From Bacilli bacterium (GTDB lineage Bacteria > Bacillota_I > Bacilli_A > RF39 > UBA660), in NCBI GenBank assembly GCA_017460245.1, contig JAFUBK010000056.1:1-26931 (forward strand): a DNA stretch of 26,931 nucleotides, read 5' to 3'. Both the position numbers and the translations under genes were made by a program. The notes beneath the pieces are model-generated. The model was not told where the DNA came from. It made no database searches and saw only the letters and a list, made by a program, of their open reading frames with translations. Below are positions 7,213 to 21,707 of the stretch, one piece after another (the stretch's first letter is position 1; each line of letters begins with the position of its first letter).

Positions 7213-7241
7213 TTGACAAAAATTAATTTTGATGATAGGAT
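7213..7241 (+). promoter_or_regulatory. Sigma-A promoter of thioester adhesin 1
   Basis: TTGACA-17 nt-TAGGAT with extended TG. Confidence 0.65.
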
Positions 7242-7298: not shown

Positions 7299-8810
7299 AT
7301 GAAAACACTTAAAAAAATTGCTGCCGGTGTGATTTCATTAGCTTTGGTTATTGCTATCACATTAGGTGTAGCTAGTGCTGCTACAGCACCAAGCTCAATC
7401 ACTGTAAAACGTGCGGAGGTTTTAAATGATATTATTACAAACCATGAACACGGATTTACAATTTTTACTACATCAGAAGGTCAATATATCTATTGTATGG
7501 ATGTTGATAAGAAAGCTTTAGTTTCTGGTCAAGTTGCAACTGCAGCTGGCAATGGGGATGCTGGATTACTTTACATTTTGCAAAATGGTTATCCTTACAA
7601 AACGATAACTGGTAATGATAATATTGATAAATACGTTACACAAGCTGCTGTTTGGTGGTATTTAGATGAAAATAAGCTATCTAACGAATTTAAAAATGCT
7701 ACAACAACTGACATTTATCAAGCTATTCCTAAATATATCAAACCATTAGTACAAGGTGCAAGAAGTGCTAAAGATACTCAGGCTACTCCAAGTATGAAGG
7801 TATCTACTGGTAATAGTGAACTTACTTTAACTAGTGATTCTAAATACTATGAATCAGAGTATATGAGTGCTACTTTAGTAAGTGCTAGTACTTATGAAGT
7901 GTCTTTAAATGGTGCTACTACTAATACTGCTATTGTTTCAGAAAGTGGAGAAGTTAAATCTACATTTAATTCTTCAGAAAAGTTTAAAGTAAGAGTACCT
8001 GCTTCAGAAGTAAGCTCTAAACTTAACATTACTGTTAACTTTAAAGCAACTGGATCAGTACAAAAAGCTAAAATTTTTAAACCTAGCGATGCTTCTTACC
8101 AAAGAGTTGTTGGATTATTTGATGAAGTTACAAGTTTATCTAATACTGCAAATTTAACTGTTACACCAGTTAAACACGTTTGTGAATATACAGATGGAAA
8201 ATACTATGGTAAAGCTGGTAACGAAGTTGATAAAAAGACTTACAACAAGGAATGTAAACACGTTTGTGAATATACAGACGGAAAATACTATGGTAAAACT
8301 GGTAATGAAGTAGACGAAAAAACATTTATTAAAGAATGTAAACACGTTTGTGAATATACAGATGGAAAATACTATGGTATCGAAGGAAAAGTAGTTGGTA
8401 AAAAAACTTACGAAAAAGAATGTAAGAAAACTTGTGAATATTCTGATGGAAAATATTATGATAAAAATGGTAAAGTAGTTGATGAGAAAACATTTAATAA
8501 AGAATGTAAAGAACAATTAACTTGTGCTGTTGTCGATGGAAAATATTATGATAAAAATGGTAATGTTGTTGGAGAAAAAACATATGCACAAGAATGTGGA
8601 TCTAAACATATTTGTGAATATACTGACAATAATTACTATGGATCAAATGGCCAAGTAGTTGATCAAGATACATTTAATAGGCAATGTGGTTTAGAAGTAG
8701 CAGTTCCAAATACTGGTTCTAACGTTTCACCAATTGCTGTAGCTTTAGGTATTGTCTTTATGGCTGCCGGAGCATATCTAATTGTTTACCGTAAAAATCA
8801 ATTGAGCTAA
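7299..8810 (+). CDS. Cys-Gln thioester-domain (TQXA/TED) surface adhesin 1, sortase-type VPNTG anchor
   Basis: Signal peptide ending VASA; YIYCMD (Cys codon 7494) and TQAAVWW (Gln codon 7641); beta-rich middle domain; six Cys-bounded repeats; VPNTG (8703-8717), hydrophobic helix, RK tail. Confidence 0.88.
   Translation: MKTLKKIAAGVISLALVIAITLGVASAATAPSSITVKRAEVLNDIITNHEHGFTIFTTSEGQYIYCMDVDKKALVSGQVATAAGNGDAGLLYILQNGYPYKTITGNDNIDKYVTQAAVWWYLDENKLSNEFKNATTTDIYQAIPKYIKPLVQGARSAKDTQATPSMKVSTGNSELTLTSDSKYYESEYMSATLVSASTYEVSLNGATTNTAIVSESGEVKSTFNSSEKFKVRVPASEVSSKLNITVNFKATGSVQKAKIFKPSDASYQRVVGLFDEVTSLSNTANLTVTPVKHVCEYTDGKYYGKAGNEVDKKTYNKECKHVCEYTDGKYYGKTGNEVDEKTFIKECKHVCEYTDGKYYGIEGKVVGKKTYEKECKKTCEYSDGKYYDKNGKVVDEKTFNKECKEQLTCAVVDGKYYDKNGNVVGEKTYAQECGSKHICEYTDNNYYGSNGQVVDQDTFNRQCGLEVAVPNTGSNVSPIAVALGIVFMAAGAYLIVYRKNQLS
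8171..8687 (+). repeat. Six 28-aa (84-bp) two-cysteine stalk repeats
   Basis: taaacacgtttgtgaatatacaga recurs at 8171, 8255 and 8339 (84-bp period), then three diverged units. Consensus KHVCEYTDGKYYGKxGxxVDxKTYxKEC. Confidence 0.95.
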
Positions 8811-8839
8811 AAATATGAGATTTAATCTCATATTTTTTT
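8809..8839 (+). terminator. Intrinsic terminator after adhesin 1
   Basis: aaaaatatgaga/tctcatattttt perfect stem plus T-run. Confidence 0.85.
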
Positions 8840-8883
8840 CTTAACACTGAAAATGTCAAATTAAATTGTTTCTCTTAAAATGA

Positions 8884-8912
8884 TTGTTATTTTTAAAAAA
8901 AATTGTTATACT
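8884..8912 (+). promoter_or_regulatory. Sigma-A promoter of thioester adhesin 2
   Basis: TTGTTA-17 nt-TATACT with extended TG. Confidence 0.6.
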
Positions 8913-8932
8913 ATAATTGGAGGATAAAAGGT

Positions 8933-10273
8933 ATGAAAAAGAGAAATGTTTTATTTTTAGCGTTATGCGCAATTGTGACTATTTTTTGTAGTCTAGGTGT
9001 TGTTAGTGCCGCTACAGCGCCAAGTTCGATTACTGTAAAACGTGCGGAGGTTTTAAATGATATTATTACAAACCATACTCATGGTTTTACAATTTTCACA
9101 ACGTCTGATGGCCAATATATTTATTGTATGGATGTTGATAAGAAGGCACTTGCTTCTGGTATGACTGCCACAGCTTCTGGTAATGGTGATGCAGGATTAC
9201 TTTATATTTTGCAAAATGGTTATCCTTACAAAACGATAACTGGTAATGATAATATTGATAAATATGTTACTCAAGCTGCTATTTGGTGGTATTTAGATGA
9301 AAATAAATTATCTAATGAGTTTAAAAATGCAACGACAACAGATATTTATCAAGCTATTCCTAAATATATTAAACCATTAGTTGAAGGAGCTAAAAGTGCT
9401 AAAGATACTCAAGATACGCCAAGTATGACTTTAACTAACAATGGTACAAAAATGAGTTTGACTAGCGATTCTAAGTATTATGAATCTGAATATATGGTTG
9501 TTACTTTAACTGGTGCGCAGAGTGCAGAAATTAGTCTTAGTGGAGCTACTAAAGACACTGTTATTGTTGATGAGGGTGGTAATGTTGGTAACACTGTTTC
9601 TTCAGGTGAAAAATTTAAAGTAAGAGTACCGGCTTCTGAAATTAGTTCTAATGCTAATATAACTGTTAAAGCTTCAGCTACAGGAACTATTAAAAGAGCA
9701 AAAATATTTAAACCTAGTGATTCTACTTACCAAAGAGTTGTTGGTTTATATGAGGAAAATTCTAATTTAAATAAAGAAGTTACGTTATCTGTCGCTAGTA
9801 CAAAACGAGTTTGTGAGTATACTGGCGGTAAATACTATGGTAATGATGGAACTATCGTAGATAAAACTACTTATGAAAAGCAATGTAAACACGTTTGTGA
9901 GTACACTGGCGGTAAATACTATGGTAATGATGGAACTGTAGTAGGTAAAGCTACTTATGAAAAACAATGTAAACACGTTTGTGAATACACAGGTGGTAAA
10001 TACTATGGCAAAAATGGTAAAGAAGTAAGTAAAGATACATATAATAGCGAATGCTCTAATATTTGTGTATATACAAATGATAAGTATTATGGTAAAAATG
10101 GAAACGTAGTAGATAAAACTACTTACGATCAGGAATGTGGTCAAGAAATTACGGTACCTAACACTAGTGCAAATATTATTTTATGGGTAGTTGGTTTAGG
10201 TGTTGTAGCGATTGCTTCAGGAATTGGATTTATTATTTATCATGATAGAAAAAACCGTCATAAAAATGCATAA
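8933..10273 (+). CDS. Cys-Gln thioester-domain surface adhesin 2 (paralog), VPNTS anchor
   Basis: GGAGG RBS, ATG 8933, signal peptide ending VVSA; YIYCMD (Cys 9125) and TQAAIWW (Gln 9272); four Cys repeats; VPNTS (10154-10168), TM helix, basic tail. Confidence 0.88.
   Translation: MKKRNVLFLALCAIVTIFCSLGVVSAATAPSSITVKRAEVLNDIITNHTHGFTIFTTSDGQYIYCMDVDKKALASGMTATASGNGDAGLLYILQNGYPYKTITGNDNIDKYVTQAAIWWYLDENKLSNEFKNATTTDIYQAIPKYIKPLVEGAKSAKDTQDTPSMTLTNNGTKMSLTSDSKYYESEYMVVTLTGAQSAEISLSGATKDTVIVDEGGNVGNTVSSGEKFKVRVPASEISSNANITVKASATGTIKRAKIFKPSDSTYQRVVGLYEENSNLNKEVTLSVASTKRVCEYTGGKYYGNDGTIVDKTTYEKQCKHVCEYTGGKYYGNDGTVVGKATYEKQCKHVCEYTGGKYYGKNGKEVSKDTYNSECSNICVYTNDKYYGKNGNVVDKTTYDQECGQEITVPNTSANIILWVVGLGVVAIASGIGFIIYHDRKNRHKNA
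9802..10138 (+). repeat. Four 28-aa (84-bp) two-cysteine stalk repeats
   Basis: Units start at 9802, 9886, 9970 and 10054. Consensus KHVCEYTGGKYYGxxGxxVxKxTYxxxC. Confidence 0.95.
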
Positions 10274-10507: not shown

Positions 10508-12163
10508 ATGTATGAAAATACAATGACAATGGAAAGTTTACGTAAAACTTATAAACTTAAAAGAGAAAGTAGATTTTCTAGAATGATTGGTAAAATTAAG
10601 AACACTTATTATAAGGTTGGTTCTGATTATGCCAATAACCGCGTAGTTAGAGCTTTGAAAAAATTAAAAGCTCAAGGTCCTGCGCAAGCTAGATTTGTAT
10701 CAATGGGAGAAGTTAGTGCATTAAAAGTTTGTGTTGGTTTAGCTGCTGGTTTGCTAGGAGCTGATGTTACTGTAGCTTTAATGGCGCCTGATTCTGCTTT
10801 TGCATTAGAAGATGCTGGTATGACTCCTGATATGGATGCTAGTGTGGCTGCAGATGCTAGCCCTGCAGTAGAAGGAGTTTCAGAATTTGAAACTACACCT
10901 GCTGCTCCTGAGACACCTGCTTTATCTGAAGTACCGGTTGTTGAGGAGACACCTGCTTTATCTGAAGTACCGGTTGTTGAGGAGACACCTGTTGTTTCGG
11001 AAGTACCTGCTGAAAGTGTAGAAGTTGTTGAAGTGCCTGCTACTGCAACTTCAGAATTTGAAACTGCACCTGCTACTGAAGAGACTGCTGTAGCTGCTGA
11101 AAGTGTAGAAAAAACACCTATGGAAGCTCAAGCTACTATGGGAGAGACACCTGCCGAGGTTCAAGAAGCTTCTGCAGATGCTATGGTTGTTGACGATGTT
11201 AAAGTTGATAGCGATGCTGTAATTTCTGTTGAAACTACAAATGTTGCTGATATTAACTATGATGAGCCTATTGATATGTCTCAATTTGAAAATGGTCAAG
11301 ATATAACTGTGTCAGAAGGACAACAAGCTGAACTTGTTTTCCCTACAGTTCAAGATGATAACACTACAACTGCTATTATTTTAAATACACCTGATGGTCA
11401 TTCATATGTTGTAATGACTCCAGATTATGAATTAGATTATGATAAATTAAATACTTTATTTGCTGATAAAGTTGCTTCAGGGGAGATTCCTTATAATCCA
11501 TTAGATTCTAAAACATGGCCTGAAGAGTGGGCAAATAATGCTCCTACTTATGATATTTTACCTGGTATTGGTGAAAATGGATCTGAATATGATACAGCAC
11601 TTGGAAAATTAACTTTCTATAGAGATGCTGATGGTAATATTCATATGTTTAATGATGGTTCAACAACATTTGAAGCTAATGTTATGAATGATGGTATGGT
11701 TACAGAGTTGCGTCAAGATCCAGATGCTCCTGATTTTGATCCAACTGAATGGAAACCTGTTGAACATGATGTGCCAACACCTGAGCCTGAACCTGAACCT
11801 CAGCCAGAGCCAACTCCAGAACCAACACCTGAGCCTGAACCTCAGCCAGAGCCAACTCCAGAACCTGAACCAACACCTGAACCTCAGCCAGAGCCAACTC
11901 CAGTTTCAAGTATTCCTAAAACTGGTGATGAGGCTGATATTGCTCCAGTTATTGGTTTAGCTGCTGCCGGAGCAACTGCTATTGGCGCCGGTGTTGCTTT
12001 AGGTAAACAACACGATAGTGCGGTGCTTGCTGATGGTGAATATAACGGTTTAAATGATATATTTGGAAGTATTTCTATTGATGAAAATGGAAAAGTTGTT
12101 TTTCAAAACGATTTAGAAACTACTATTTCAAATTTAGTAAATGGAAAAGCAAAGACTAAGTAA
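10508..12163 (+). CDS. Acidic cell-surface protein with long leader, Pro/Glu stalk and IPKTG sorting motif
   Basis: AAGGAG RBS; about 99-aa basic then hydrophobic leader ending SAFA; A/E/P/V-rich region; non-repetitive domain; PEPEPQPEPT stalk; IPKTG at 11912-11926; Gly/Ala-rich TM; 52-aa tail. Confidence 0.85.
   Translation: MYENTMTMESLRKTYKLKRESRFSRMIGKIKNTYYKVGSDYANNRVVRALKKLKAQGPAQARFVSMGEVSALKVCVGLAAGLLGADVTVALMAPDSAFALEDAGMTPDMDASVAADASPAVEGVSEFETTPAAPETPALSEVPVVEETPALSEVPVVEETPVVSEVPAESVEVVEVPATATSEFETAPATEETAVAAESVEKTPMEAQATMGETPAEVQEASADAMVVDDVKVDSDAVISVETTNVADINYDEPIDMSQFENGQDITVSEGQQAELVFPTVQDDNTTTAIILNTPDGHSYVVMTPDYELDYDKLNTLFADKVASGEIPYNPLDSKTWPEEWANNAPTYDILPGIGENGSEYDTALGKLTFYRDADGNIHMFNDGSTTFEANVMNDGMVTELRQDPDAPDFDPTEWKPVEHDVPTPEPEPEPQPEPTPEPTPEPEPQPEPTPEPEPTPEPQPEPTPVSSIPKTGDEADIAPVIGLAAAGATAIGAGVALGKQHDSAVLADGEYNGLNDIFGSISIDENGKVVFQNDLETTISNLVNGKAKTK
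10910..11008 (+). repeat. 36-bp tandem repeat (ETPALSEVPVVE x2.7)
   Basis: gagacacctgctttatctgaagtaccggttgttgag exact at 10910 and 10946; degenerate third copy at 10982. Confidence 0.95.
11774..11902 (+). repeat. Pro-Glu-Gln-Thr stalk repeat
   Basis: PTPEPEPEPQPEPTPEPTPEPEPQPEPTPEPEPTPEPQPEPTP, with recurring cctcagccagagccaactccag. Confidence 0.95.
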
Positions 12164-19701: not shown

Positions 19702-20569
19702 TAATTCAGATATAAGATTAGATGTTTTTTTATCAGAGACTTTAGATGTAAGTCGTAGTAGTGTGAGTAAGATGATAAAAAATGGTGAAGTTTTGGTTAA
19801 CGGTAAGGCGGTTAAAGGTGGTTATATGATTAGTGAAGATGATATAATTGAAGTTAATCATGAAGAAGAGCTAAACGATGTTTTACCAGAACAGATGGAT
19901 TTAGATATTGTGTATGAAGATGATGATGTAATTGTTGTTAATAAAGCAAATGGGTTGGTTGTGCATCCGGCTGCTGGTAATTTTCACGGAACATTAGTAA
20001 ATTGTTTGATGTATCATAGTAAATTAAGTGATGTTAATGTGCAGTTTCGTCCGGGAATTGTGCATCGTATTGATGCTTATACGACGGGGTTATTGATGGT
20101 TGCTAAAAATAATAAGGCTCATGAGTTTTTGGCAAAACAACTTGCTGACAAAACGACTTATCGTAAATATATTGCTTTAGTTTGGGGCGTTATTAACAAC
20201 GATACAGGGACTATTGATGCACCGATTGGCAGATCTAAGGCCGACCGAAAAAAAATGGCAATTGATGCTGATGGTAAAGATGCTGTTACGCATTTTAAGG
20301 TTTTAAAAAGATTTAAAAATGCTAGTTTGATTGAATTAAAACTGGAAACTGGCCGCACACATCAAATTAGGGTTCATATGGATTATATTGGTCACCCTGT
20401 GGTTAATGATCCTGTGTATGGACATAGAAAATTAATTGATGAGACTGGTCAGTGTTTACATGCTAAAGAATTGGGATTTGTTCATCCTAAAACTGGTAAA
20501 TATATGCAATTTGATAGTGCTTTACCAGATGAATTTTTGAATATTTTAAAACAGTTTGAGGAGGAATAG
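19685..20569 (+). CDS. rluD: RluA/RluD family pseudouridine synthase
   Basis: S4 domain (RLDVFL), VVNKANGLVVHPA, RPGIVHRID, LETGRTHQIRVH, CLHAKELGF; canonical lspA-rluD overlap. Confidence 0.93.
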   Translation: MKIEVNNSDIRLDVFLSETLDVSRSSVSKMIKNGEVLVNGKAVKGGYMISEDDIIEVNHEEELNDVLPEQMDLDIVYEDDDVIVVNKANGLVVHPAAGNFHGTLVNCLMYHSKLSDVNVQFRPGIVHRIDAYTTGLLMVAKNNKAHEFLAKQLADKTTYRKYIALVWGVINNDTGTIDAPIGRSKADRKKMAIDADGKDAVTHFKVLKRFKNASLIELKLETGRTHQIRVHMDYIGHPVVNDPVYGHRKLIDETGQCLHAKELGFVHPKTGKYMQFDSALPDEFLNILKQFEEE

Positions 20570-20570
20570 T

Positions 20571-21707
20571 ATGAATGAAGTTCTGACTATTGAAAATGAT
20601 GAACTGGTGATGAAGTTATTGAGATATTTTGTGGCTGAAAAAAATTATAATCCGATTATTATAAGAGGCGTTCAAGGCGAAATATGGCTTGAAAATATGG
20701 AGGAGGATTATAAAATTGTTAGAATTGTATCTCATTATATTCACAATGATACGCAGTTTGAATTTGATATTGCTAAGACAAAACAACTAATGAGTACAAT
20801 TAGAAAAAAAACTTTGTCTTTAAAAATGAATGTGCTTAGTATTTTTGTTAATTTAGGAGATAATGTTAATATGGAAAAATTTAATAGTATCCCTAAAATT
20901 TCAGTGGCTTCTGTTACTGATACTAAGGATTTAGAAAAATATCGATTTATACTTGATTCATTTCCTGATATTACTAAAAAGACTGTATTTAGTGAGAAAG
21001 GGTTGGAACTTTTTGTAAAGTTAACAAGCGATATTGCGGAAAAAAATGAGGATGATGCGAGAATGAATGAAGATGTATTTTCAATGAAAAAACCGGTGGT
21101 AACGGTTAGTTTGATTGTAATAAATATTATTGTATTTTTACTTTCTTATGTTTTTAATTTGATTGAAGTGTTTGGAGTAAGTCGCATGGGAGTGCTTCAC
21201 GGTGAATATTATCGTTTGCTTACAGGGATATTTTTACATGGTGGGCTGTTACATATTGTTTTTAATATGTAGGCGTTATACGTTATTGGAGCGCAACTGG
21301 ACAGTTTTCTTGGAAAATGGAAATTGTTGATTGTTGATTTATTAAGTGGACTTGCTGGCAGTGTGCTTTCAATTTTCTTTGGAAACGGAATAAGTGTAGG
21401 TGCTTCTGGAGCAATTTTTGGTTTACTTGGCGCACTTTTATATTTTGGATATCATTACCGTGTTTACTTAGAAACTGTTATTAAATCACAGATTATTCCG
21501 CTTATTATTTTAAATTTACTTATTGGTTTTTCTACACCTGGAATTGATAACTGGGCTCATATTGGTGGTTTAATTGGAGGAATACTTTCTACTATGGCTG
21601 TTGGTGTAAAATATAAATCAACGAAGTTTGAAATGACTAATGGTTGGATATTATATTTAGTTTATACAATATCTATCTTGTTTATGGTATTTAGTAGGGG
21701 AATATAA
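20571..21707 (+). pseudogene. Rhomboid intramembrane serine protease (GluP/YqgP-like) interrupted by in-frame TAG at 21270-21272
   Basis: The track ORFs 20556..21272 and 21324..21707 are in one frame. Read-through gives EYYRL..FLHGG..HIVFNM*ALYVIG..LG..SG..GASGAIFG..AHIGG. Nonsense allele or base-call error. Confidence 0.85.

What the first reader, a model, noticed from the sequence alone, without database searches (positions are those of the whole stretch)
7299..10273. Twin thioester 'chemical harpoon' adhesins: near-identical reactive heads on diverged stalks of different length
Seen: both have YIYCMD and TQAA(V/I)WW. From ATAPSS to TPSM they differ at 10 of 139 residues by manual alignment. 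The head DNA includes identical tracts of about 45 and 58 nt amid many synonymous differences. Signal peptides, middle domains and anchors (VPNTG vs VPNTS) diverge, and stalks have 6 vs 4 repeats. Established: Cys-Gln thioester domains (TQXA/TED, as in SfbI and Cpa) bond covalently to host lysines and are typically the most variable part of such proteins. Inference: the usual pattern is inverted here, suggesting one conserved target engaged at two distances, maintained by selection or patchy gene conversion, in a likely uncultured gut lineage.
Basis: partly seen in the sequence, partly recalled or inferred. Interest (0 to 1): 0.65.

Follow-up and report, generated by a model that had tools for sequence, protein, structure and literature searches.

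The report
Twin thioester adhesins with copy-corrected heads
Two neighbouring surface-adhesin genes of an uncultured gut bacterium keep their reactive "head" nearly identical, because the copies repeatedly overwrite each other there (gene conversion) and selection resists change, while the rest of each gene has drifted apart since an old duplication.

Summary
Genes A (7299-8810, 503 aa) and B (true start 8933, to 10273, 446 aa) differ at 10 of 139 head residues. They share identical DNA tracts of 45 and 59 nt. Signal peptides, middle region and anchors diverge, and the stalks have 6 versus 4 repeats.

The interpretation needs correcting. Head and "middle" together form one Class II thioester domain (closest solved structure: BaTIE, 6FWV, Z 20). 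By homology the bond-forming Gln is Gln268 (YQRVV) in the "middle", not the TQAA Gln.

The tandem A-then-B pair recurs in 11 species of this gut genus. Signal peptide plus anchor separate A from B (support 96/97). The upper lobe instead groups by genome in all ten pairs tested, and A-type monophyly is rejected (AU p = 2e-29). Within-genome synonymous difference in the lobe runs from 0.02 to 0.52.

So the head evolves in concert through recurrent, lobe-restricted gene conversion plus purifying selection (window pair dN/dS 0.07). In the window pair conversion is old (pS 0.44) and only short tracts look recent.

A has more stalk repeats than B in all 11 pairs, which fits "one target, two reaches" but does not test it. 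The 28-aa two-cysteine stalk repeat matches no Pfam family or solved fold. This is a new variant of a known kind, of moderate interest.

The parts
7213..7241 (+). promoter-like site of gene A (TTGACA-17-TAGGAT, TG-extended)
   Evidence: Consensus scan. This is a pattern match only.
7299..8810 (+). gene A: 503-aa long-stalk Class II thioester adhesin. Signal peptide aa 1-27, then TED, six stalk repeats and a VPNTG sorting signal.
   Evidence: ORF. Pfam TED 37.5 bits, TIGR01167 anchor 20.3 bits against a 15.9 cut-off. AF2 model pLDDT 84.8.
7380..7778 (+). A upper lobe of the TED (aa 28-160). It holds the reactive Cys66 (codon 7494-7496, YIYCMD) and TQAAVW (7638-7655). This is the part homogenised with gene B.
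   Evidence: pLDDT above 90. Class I TEDs align to aa 32..277 while skipping the insert (Z 11-13). In the lobe tree A and B of the window are sisters at 100/99.
7401..7445 (+). 45-nt tract identical to 9032-9076 in gene B
7575..7633 (+). 59-nt tract identical to 9206-9264 in gene B. The local synonymous-difference trough (pS 0.12) lies here.
7779..8057 (+). A beta-sandwich insert (aa 161-253), the feature that defines a Class II TED.
   Evidence: Strands in the AF2 model. Matches Ig-like folds at Z about 8, and BaTIE/EfmTIE86 over the whole of aa 28-293 at Z 20.2/18.9.
8058..8123 (+). tip of the long P-Q beta-hairpin (aa 254-275, KAKIFKPSDASYQRVVGL) carrying the predicted bond-forming Gln268 (codon 8100-8102)
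   Evidence: Gln268 is nearly invariant in 57 homologues. It aligns within one residue of BaTIE Gln266. It fits the PhiQzetaPhiPhi motif of PMC6194298. The island is conserved between the paralogs.
8181..8687 (+). A stalk: six 28-aa repeats, each C-x23-C with a 3-aa linker (Cys295 to Cys463)
   Evidence: AF2 predicts a hairpin plus helix per repeat, pLDDT 83. No Pfam family and no PDB match.
8703..8807 (+). A sorting signal: VPNTG, a hydrophobic stretch, then a basic tail
   Evidence: TIGR01167 is above its cut-off. Two sortase genes are present in the genome.
8811..8840 (+). AT-rich hairpin followed by a T-run after gene A, a likely terminator
   Evidence: Read from the sequence. The consensus scanner did not call it because the stem has too few G-C pairs.
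8884..8923 (+). promoter-like site (TTGTTA-17-TATACT, 8884-8912) and GGAGG ribosome-binding site (8919-8923) of gene B
8933..10273 (+). gene B: 446-aa shorter-stalk paralog. Signal peptide aa 1-26, Cys65 (9125-9127), TQAAIW (9269-9286), Gln267 (9731-9733), four stalk repeats (9812-10138), VPNTS (10154-10168).
   Evidence: The database gene call is 446 aa.

Best explanation
A and B are two separately transcribed, probably sortase-anchored surface adhesins.

**Domain structure.** The N-terminal ~265 mature residues of each form one Class II thioester domain. It has three parts:
- an upper lobe (aa 28-160) carrying the reactive Cys66/65 and the TQxxΦW helix;
- an inserted beta-sandwich (aa ~161-253);
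- a long beta-hairpin whose tip brings Gln268/267 back into the lobe.

**Inferred chemistry.** Cys and Gln form a thioester, which a nucleophile on the target (typically a lysine amine) attacks. This would leave the bacterium covalently tied to its ligand. The domain is held away from the wall on a stalk of 28-aa two-cysteine mini-domains, six in A and four in B.

**Evolution.** The two genes are old tandem paralogs. The duplication predates the split of at least 11 species of this gut genus. Signal peptides, sandwich, stalk and anchor have evolved independently since. The upper lobe, and less strongly the hairpin tip, is repeatedly overwritten between the copies by gene conversion and is also under strong purifying selection. 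Each genome therefore carries two near-identical reactive heads on a longer and a shorter stalk, while heads differ about 40% between species.

**The window pair.** The last lobe-wide conversion is old (pS 0.44). Only short tracts of 45 and 59 nt look recent.

**Shown versus inferred.** Shown: fold class, motifs, paralogy, concerted evolution, selection. Inferred: that the thioester forms, that the proteins are wall-anchored, and that the long/short pairing serves one ligand at two reaches.
For: **Fold**
- Pfam TED is above its cut-off for both proteins.
- A profile of the family hits BaTIE 6FWV at E 1.3e-21 over aa 47-285.
- The AF2 model has pLDDT above 90 for aa 30-290.
- Foldseek's top hits are the three Class II TEDs.
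- VIA-align gives Z 20.2 (246 residues aligned) to 6FWV and Z 18.9 (254 of 280) to 6FWY. Class I TEDs align only about 140 residues, skipping the insert.

**Motifs**
- The family shows YC[MLV]D, TQxxΦW and YQRVV, with C66, Q115 and Q268 at least 90% conserved in 57 homologues.
- The motif definitions and the BaTIE Cys71-Gln266 bond come from PMC6194298.

**Paralogy**
- 11 species carry A upstream of B on the same strand.
- The downstream genes (orf551 homolog, orf81 homolog and, where the locus reaches it, hisS) recur in seven of the ten other tandem-pair loci.
- The tree of signal peptide plus anchor splits A from B at 96/97.

**Concerted evolution**
- In the lobe tree, A and B of the same genome are nearest neighbours in 10 of 10 genomes. 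Eight pairs are supported sisters and two lie in unresolved forks.
- A-type monophyly is rejected, with delta lnL 723 and AU p = 2e-29.
- In a 67-sequence head tree the A/B labels are as scattered as random: 26 changes against a shuffled mean of 22.7.
- Lobe identity is 88.8% within a genome and 59% between genomes. The anchor shows the reverse: 41.6% within a genome, 50-52% between orthologs.
- Within-genome lobe pS ranges from 0.02 to 0.52, against a between-genome mean of 0.59.
- Tract maps show sharp edges at about codon 31-42 and about codon 150-167. In L053, codons 31-167 are identical. The G019 pair has pS 0.00-0.09 inside the lobe and 0.4-0.8 outside it.

**Selection in the window pair**
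- Lobe dN/dS is 0.07, against 0.41 for the middle region.

**Stalk length**
- A has 1-6 repeats and B has 0-4. A has more than B in all 11 pairs.
Against: - No coordinates of the model were available, so the Cys66-Gln268 distance was not measured. The thioester itself is unproven.
- The HMM alignment places Gln268 one residue off BaTIE Gln266.
- In the window pair alone the case for conversion is modest. Lobe pS is 0.44 against 0.52-0.75 elsewhere and close to saturation (0.59).
- B gives no hit to an anchor HMM, and the motif ends in S rather than G.
- The A/B labels were first assigned from the anchor motif, so the 'ends' tree is partly circular. Gene order gives the same labels independently.
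- Most genomes are fragmentary MAGs, and several carry implausible taxon names.
- The target and the benefit of two stalk lengths are unknown.
Confidence: 0.78

Rival explanations
1. Purifying selection alone. The two heads of the window pair have stayed alike since the ancient duplication only because the lobe tolerates few amino-acid changes. No gene conversion is involved.
For: - Lobe pS of 0.44 is close to the between-genome saturation level of about 0.59.
- dN/dS is 0.07.
- The lobe is also the best-conserved part between species.
Against: - Without conversion the A lobes of different species should group together. That tree is rejected at AU p = 2e-29, and the window's A and B are sisters at 100/99.
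- Window lobe pS (0.44) is lower than every comparison of either copy with any other genome (0.50-0.73).
- The identical tracts are longer than chance allows (P 0.005 and 0.00025).
- Other species have lobes with pS 0.02-0.04 flanked by diverged sequence.
Confidence: 0.07
2. Repeated recent duplication (birth and death). Each species duplicated the adhesin gene independently, and the ends were later replaced or diverged fast. On this view there was no old pair with conversion.
For: Near-identical lobes in some genomes (pS 0.02-0.04) are what a young duplicate would show.
Against: - Signal peptide plus anchor of A and of B form reciprocal clades across species (96/97).
- Gene order is always A then B.
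- Downstream synteny recurs in most pair loci.
- Identity drops abruptly at the lobe edges inside a continuous reading frame. This mosaic is what conversion predicts and whole-gene duplication does not.
Confidence: 0.05
3. Conversion is a neutral by-product, not an adaptation. The conserved lobe simply keeps enough DNA identity for recombination to start there. On this view the long/short pairing has no 'two-reach' function, and B may be redundant or decaying.
For: - Tracts concentrate in the most conserved stretch (codons ~93-125) in several pairs.
- The B copy is broken in one species, as a 262-aa ORF with internal stops.
- Many species of the genus gave only one match in the searches.
- The pair separated by a 1.6-kb insertion has the highest lobe pS, 0.52.
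Against: - B is intact, with its own promoter-like site and sorting signal, in 10 of 11 pairs.
- A is longer than B in every pair.
- The B lobe is under strong purifying selection.
- None of this excludes neutrality of the conversion itself.
Confidence: 0.3
4. The repeat region is not an inert spacer. It may be a ligand- or wall-binding module related to choline-binding/cell-wall-binding beta-hairpin repeats. In that case 6 versus 4 repeats would change avidity rather than reach.
For: - Foldseek's best hits for the stalk model are all choline-binding, glucan-binding or CROP repeats, though none is significant (E 0.02-1, probability at most 0.11).
- The Atlas structural neighbours include choline-binding families at TM 0.34-0.39.
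- One stalk-bearing relative scores 26.6 bits against a 27-bit cut-off on Choline_bind_3.
Against: - The window's stalks match no Pfam family at its cut-off.
- VIA-align against 48,161 chains gives nothing at Z 2 or above.
- Each unit carries an extra helix and an invariant Cys pair that choline-binding repeats lack.
- The repeats lie between head and anchor, the usual place for a stalk.
Confidence: 0.15

Closest known systems
BaTIE (BasC/BA5258) of Bacillus anthracis, PDB 6FWV, and the other Class II TEDs EfmTIE86 (6FWY) and SaTIE (6FX6)
   Same: - Same fold: an upper lobe, an inserted beta-sandwich and a P-Q hairpin that delivers the Gln. VIA-align gives Z 20.2 and 18.9, and the profile hit is E 1.3e-21.
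- The same three motifs are present.
- The TED sits at the N-terminus of a protein with a C-terminal sorting signal.
   Different: - Only 19-23% identical.
- The stalk is not made of CnaB isopeptide or ester domains. It is made of 28-aa two-Cys repeats with no known family.
- The sorting motif is VPNT(G/S), not LPATG.
- The gene occurs as a tandem long/short pair.
Class I TED adhesins (SfbI 5A0L, CpTIE 5A0G, Cpa 2XI9/4C0Z, FNE 5DCQ)
   Same: - The upper lobe and the Cys/Gln chemistry are shared (Z 11-13 over about 140 residues).
- The proposed mechanism is covalent capture of a target amine, as shown for SfbI and fibrinogen (PMC4450167).
   Different: The window proteins lack the Class I helix alpha-0 region and carry the ~90-residue sandwich insert. 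They are therefore not Class I.
TIEpLS20 (p34), the Class II TED adhesin of plasmid pLS20 needed for conjugation in liquid (PMC8092201)
   Same: It is a Class II TED on a stalk. It shows that the target of such adhesins can be another bacterium rather than a host tissue.
   Different: It is plasmid-borne, has a Cna-type stalk and is not sortase-coupled (section headings seen). The window genes are chromosomal, sitting among housekeeping genes.
Gene conversion between paralogous adhesin genes, e.g. Helicobacter pylori babA/babB and yeast FLO genes (PMC5483490, PMC3512402; known to me only from titles and abstracts and from general knowledge)
   Same: Adhesin paralogs exchange sequence by ectopic recombination or gene conversion.
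   Different: - Here the exchange is confined to one structural sub-domain of a thioester domain.
- It homogenises rather than diversifies.
- It has persisted across at least 11 species, with the gene ends staying orthologous.
- A library search for 'thioester domain' with 'gene conversion' returned only complement and TEP1 papers, and none on bacterial TEDs.

Membership tests
Thioester domain (Pfam PF08341 TED) | Score above the curated gathering cut-off | tested here: met
   A scores 37.5 bits and B scores 41.0 bits against a 22-bit cut-off.
Thioester domain | Bond-forming Cys in a [YFL]C-Phi-zeta motif | tested here: met
   YIYCMD is present in both proteins (Cys66 and Cys65). This Cys is conserved in at least 90% of 57 homologues. 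The motif definition is from PMC6194298.
Thioester domain | [quoted passage not shown] | tested here: met
   YQRVV is present (Gln268 and Gln267), at least 90% conserved. It aligns within one residue of BaTIE Gln266. Assigned by homology only.
Thioester domain | TQxx-Phi-W motif | tested here: met
   TQAAVW and TQAAIW are present. TIGR03934 scores 24-26 bits, below its 30.4-bit cut-off.
Thioester domain | Cys and Gln side chains within bonding distance in the fold | not testable with these tools
   Model coordinates are not exposed. The only support is indirect: a whole-domain superposition on solved Class II TEDs at Z 19-20.
Thioester domain | A thioester is actually formed (17-Da loss, reactivity with amines) | not testable with these tools
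   This needs recombinant protein and mass spectrometry.
Class II TED (Miller et al. 2018) | A beta-sandwich of about 75 or more residues inserted between the helical subdomain and strands P/Q, with the hairpin looping back into the lobe | tested here: met
   The AF2 model has strands over aa 165-288, including a long hairpin at 242-262 / 270-288. VIA-align gives Z 20.2 and 18.9 to 6FWV and 6FWY over aa 28-293. Class I TEDs align only about 140 residues.
TIE proteins (thioester + isopeptide/ester domain stalk) | Stalk built of CnaB-type isopeptide domains or ester domains | tested here: not met
   Neither protein gives a Cna_B, isopeptide or ester-domain hit. The stalk is made of 28-aa hairpin-plus-helix repeats.
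Sortase-anchored (LPXTG-type) surface proteins | C-terminal sorting motif, hydrophobic stretch and basic tail recognised by the anchor HMMs | tested here: inconclusive
   A passes TIGR01167 (20.3 bits against 15.9) but is below the Pfam cut-off (18.6 against 20). B gives no HMM hit, although it has VPNTS, a hydrophobic stretch and a basic tail. VPNT[SGAKE] is the norm across the family.
Sortase-anchored surface proteins | A sortase encoded in the same genome | tested here: met
   Two sortase genes are present, on contigs C54 and C125. They pass the family-level model only, and no subclass model reaches its cut-off.
Choline-binding / cell-wall-binding repeats (PF01473, PF19127), considered for the stalk | Pfam score above cut-off or a clear fold match | tested here: inconclusive
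   The window's stalks give no such Pfam hit. Foldseek's best hits are of this kind but weak (E at least 0.02). VIA-align wide finds nothing at Z 2 or above. One relative scores 26.6 bits against a 27-bit cut-off.
Concerted evolution by interlocus gene conversion | Paralogs within a genome are more alike than orthologs between genomes, in a bounded segment, also at synonymous sites | tested here: met
   Lobe identity is 88.8% within a genome against 59% between genomes. The AU test rejects A-type monophyly at p = 2e-29. Lobe pS is 0.02-0.52 within genomes against 0.59 between. Tract edges are sharp.

The most novel reading that the evidence does not exclude
The long/short pair with copy-corrected heads may be an adaptive 'two-reach' covalent adhesion system. 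Selection would favour conversion that keeps both heads matched to one ligand, which itself changes between host-associated species. The heads would be presented at two fixed distances on a previously undescribed cysteine-stapled (disulfide or metal) 28-aa mini-domain stalk that is confined to a small group of gut Bacillota.
Probability: 0.25. Interest if true: 0.65.

Novelty: new variant of a known kind. Interest (0 to 1): 0.45.

Why it matters
Thioester adhesins are widespread in Gram-positive bacteria, but most have no known target. How their specificity evolves is little studied.

This locus offers three things:
- A natural experiment. The same reactive lobe sits on two stalk lengths in at least 11 species, and the lobe changes between species while staying matched within each genome. 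That points to where specificity lies: the upper lobe, and especially the loop at about aa 59-90, where the few paralog differences cluster.
- A clean bacterial example of gene conversion bounded by a structural sub-domain.
- A rare stalk repeat that is unassigned to any family. Only 275 clusters among 1.84 billion representative proteins carry it.

It also corrects an easy annotation error: in Class II domains the TQxA glutamine is not the bond partner.

Tried and rejected
- **Contig look-up closed.** Same-contig pairing of the metagenome proteins could therefore not be looked up. I used whole-genome and genome-contig loci instead.
- **First locus search failed.** The search for related loci with the 57-sequence alignment failed because no stretch was conserved enough. 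A 10-sequence alignment worked.
- **Gln115 (TQAA) as bond partner.** Rejected on the literature and on the alignment to BaTIE.
- **Stalk identity.** There was no Pfam family at its cut-off and no significant Foldseek hit. VIA-align wide gave nothing, and the Atlas gave no usable feature hit, only TM below 0.4.
- **Third TED protein of the genome** (contig C54, next to a sortase). It shows no significant BLASTP similarity to A (best E 0.43) and is not part of this system.
- **Within- versus between-genome dN/dS.** I considered using this to prove co-selection and dropped it, because between-genome synonymous sites are saturated.
- **Assembly artefact.** Rejected for the window pair, because the copies differ at 13% of head nucleotides and 27% overall.


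Full report
**What is there**

The window is a chromosomal stretch of a low-GC (about 30%) genome with housekeeping genes on both sides: mutS, phosphoketolase, hisS, aspS, RNase HIII, lspA and rluD. The genome held for it is a fragmentary MAG of 863 kb in 171 contigs, 74.5% complete.

Two same-strand ORFs fill the finding: A at 7299-8810 (503 aa) and B ending at 10273. B almost certainly starts at ATG 8933. That start has a GGAGG 10 nt upstream, the database gene call is 446 aa, and the TTG at 8903 sits inside a -10-like TATACT. Each gene has its own promoter-like site. An AT-rich hairpin with a T-run separates them.

**Check of the observation**

Every element is confirmed.
- Both proteins carry YIYCMD and TQAA(V/I)WW.
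- The identical DNA tracts are 45 nt (7401-7445 / 9032-9076) and 59 nt (7575-7633 / 9206-9264). They lie among 55 nucleotide differences, about 40 of them synonymous.
- Shuffling codon columns gives P = 0.005 for the longest tract and 0.00025 for the two together. Using only synonymous-capable codons gives P = 0.018.
- Signal peptides are 35% identical, the middle 56%, the aligned stalk 65% and the anchor 44%.
- The stalks are six and four copies of a 28-aa unit, C-x23-C plus a 3-residue linker. The sorting motifs are VPNTG and VPNTS.

**What the protein is**

Both proteins pass the Pfam TED cut-off.

An AlphaFold2 model of A has pLDDT above 90 for aa 30-290. Foldseek ranks the three solved Class II TEDs first. 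VIA-align gives Z 20.2 to BaTIE (246 residues) and Z 18.9 to EfmTIE86 (254 of its 280 residues). Class I TEDs match only about 140 residues spread over aa 32-277, skipping aa ~160-255, and that skipped part on its own matches Ig-like sandwiches.

This is the Class II architecture described by Miller et al. (PMC6194298). It has an upper lobe, an inserted beta-sandwich, and a twisted P-Q hairpin that loops back into the lobe and supplies the bond-forming Gln. The same paper states three things: the bonding Cys lies in [YFL]CΦζ, the bonding Gln lies in a weak ΦQζΦΦ motif, and the Gln and Trp of TQxxΦW are not essential for bond formation. BaTIE's bond is Cys71-Gln266.

In the profile alignment our Cys66 falls on BaTIE's Cys. 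Our Gln268 (YQRVV) falls one residue from BaTIE's Gln266 (VQNTT). Cys66, Gln115 and Gln268 are all at least 90% conserved in the family. The predicted bond is therefore Cys66-Gln268 in A and Cys65-Gln267 in B.

I could not measure the Cys-Gln distance because model coordinates are not exposed. That test, and the chemistry itself, remain open.

**Why the heads are alike**

*Window pair alone.* The lobe has pS 0.44 (dS about 0.67) and dN/dS 0.07. The middle has dS 0.88 and dN/dS 0.41, and the stalk has dS 0.99. There is one trough of pS 0.12 around codons 96-125. That shows strong purifying selection and only modest evidence for conversion.

*Comparative data settle it.*
- The family was found in 21 of 24 sampled species of the window's genus and in none of 16 more distant relatives.
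- A scan of genome contigs found 79 loci in gut MAGs from human (Hadza), rabbit, sheep rectum and chicken. The record names include Ca. Onthousia, Ca. Coprosoma, CAG:822 and CAG:451.
- Eleven species, including the window's, have the tandem pair, always A upstream of B on one strand.
- Homologues of the window's downstream genes (orf551, orf81 and, where the locus reaches it, hisS) recur downstream in seven of the ten other pair loci.

*Trees on the ten intact pairs*:
- Signal peptide plus anchor separate all A from all B (support 96/97).
- In the upper lobe (aa 27-160), A and B of the same genome are nearest neighbours in all ten genomes. Eight are supported sisters and two lie in unresolved forks.
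- Forcing the A copies together costs 723 log-likelihood units (AU p = 2e-29).
- The sandwich is intermediate, with 4 label changes and AU p = 0.12.

A larger 67-sequence head tree shows A/B labels as scattered as random (26 changes against a shuffled mean of 22.7). The middle region keeps some paralog signal (13 changes, 0 of 500 shuffles as low).

*Identity and synonymous sites.* Lobe identity is 88.8% within genomes and 59% between genomes, whichever types are compared. Anchors are 41.6% identical within genomes and 50-52% between orthologs. Within-genome lobe pS spans 0.02, 0.04, 0.20, 0.21, 0.27, 0.34, 0.44 (window), 0.44, 0.49 and 0.52. The between-genome mean is 0.59.

*Tract edges.* Codon maps show sharp edges. 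In L053 codons 31-167 are identical, in L048 codons 31-150 and in L050 codons 42-124. The sequence outside these tracts is diverged. The G019 pair has pS 0.00-0.09 inside the lobe and 0.4-0.8 outside. The hairpin tip that carries the Gln is a second, weaker island of similarity.

This is concerted evolution by recurrent gene conversion, confined to the structural unit that carries the reactive site and superimposed on purifying selection. In the window genome the last lobe-wide event is old, and the 45- and 59-nt tracts are the only recent-looking traces. The window's lobe pS is still lower than that of either copy against any other genome (0.50-0.73).

"Selection or patchy conversion" is right, and both apply.

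"The usual pattern is inverted" is not supported. The papers read describe high diversity among TEDs of different proteins and variable loops near the bond (PMC4450167). They do not state that the TED is the most variable part of a given protein. In this family the lobe is the best-conserved part between species as well.

"One conserved target" holds only within a genome, because lobes differ by about 40% between species.

"Two distances" fits a regularity I did not expect. A has more stalk repeats than B in all 11 pairs. In the ten other species B has no repeats at all, while A has 1-5. The window's clade is unusual in giving B a stalk, and B's first two repeats are 92% identical in DNA, which indicates a recent internal duplication.

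Function of the pairing is untested. A neutral reading, in which conversion simply follows DNA identity kept by selection, remains open. One species has a broken B. The pair split by a 1.6-kb insertion has the highest lobe pS.

Within the lobe, the few A/B differences cluster at about aa 59-90, just after the Cys strand, in most species. This may mark a specificity loop; that is inference.

**The stalk and the anchor**

Each 28-aa unit is predicted as a beta-hairpin, a short strand and a helix, bracketed by two invariant cysteines (pLDDT 83). It matches no Pfam family at its cut-off. Foldseek finds no significant solved structure, and its best hits (E 0.02-1) are choline-binding, glucan-binding or CROP repeats. 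An exhaustive VIA-align search finds nothing.

Only 275 of 1.84 billion cluster representatives carry the repeat at E of 0.001 or better. In the ten I scanned, the only above-cut-off domain elsewhere in the protein was a set of SpaA-type domains in one protein, and five had no hit at all.

The protein is therefore not a TIE protein in the strict sense, because it has no isopeptide or ester domains.

The sorting motif across the family is VPNT followed by S, G, A, K or E. VPNTS is thus the norm here, not an oddity. The genome encodes two sortases that no subclass model claims.

**Verdict**

This is a Class II thioester adhesin pair whose reactive upper lobe evolves in concert across a gut genus, on an unassigned cysteine-bracketed stalk.

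Gene conversion between adhesin paralogs is a known process. A library search for 'thioester domain' with 'gene conversion' returned no paper on bacterial thioester domains. I rate it a new variant of a known kind, with moderate interest.

Noticed in passing
window 20556-21707: The rhomboid protease gene is split into two ORFs. The end of the first matches Rhomboid profile positions 2-24, and the second matches positions 44-139. This could be a frameshift, a pseudogene or an assembly error.
   Followed up: no
window 10508-12163: A 551-aa protein has a Pro/Glu/Thr-rich spacer, an IPKTG motif, a hydrophobic stretch and an unusually long tail after it. Homologues of it, or of the small orf81 gene that follows it, lie downstream of the adhesin pair in seven of the ten other pair loci.
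   Followed up: partly
L002 1327-2692 (G000 contig C54): A third TED protein of 289 aa is unrelated in sequence to A and B. It ends VPNTG but has no hydrophobic tail as called. Its end overlaps the start of an adjacent sortase gene, so there may be a frameshift or an unusual arrangement.
   Followed up: partly
L055 6300-7762 (G014 contig C7): In one species a 1.6-kb insertion separates A from B. It carries a 387-aa membrane protein and a 99-aa protein. This pair also has the highest lobe synonymous divergence (0.52). That hints that conversion falls off with distance, but it is a single case.
   Followed up: partly
L057 6592-7380 / L039 (G008 contig C19): The B copy is broken in this species. 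It is a 262-aa ORF, and one search reports internal TGA and TAA stops in the region homologous to the N-terminus.
   Followed up: no
loci L049, L050, L053, L055: Several MAG records that carry this Bacilli-type locus are titled Tannerellaceae, Vescimonas, Bacteroidaceae or Muribaculaceae. These are probably mis-binned contigs or wrong bin names.
   Followed up: no
family-wide C-termini: The sorting motif of this lineage is VP(N/S/D)T followed by a variable fifth residue (S, G, A, K, E, Q), not LPXTG. The two sortases of the genome fit no NCBIfam subclass at cut-off.
   Followed up: partly
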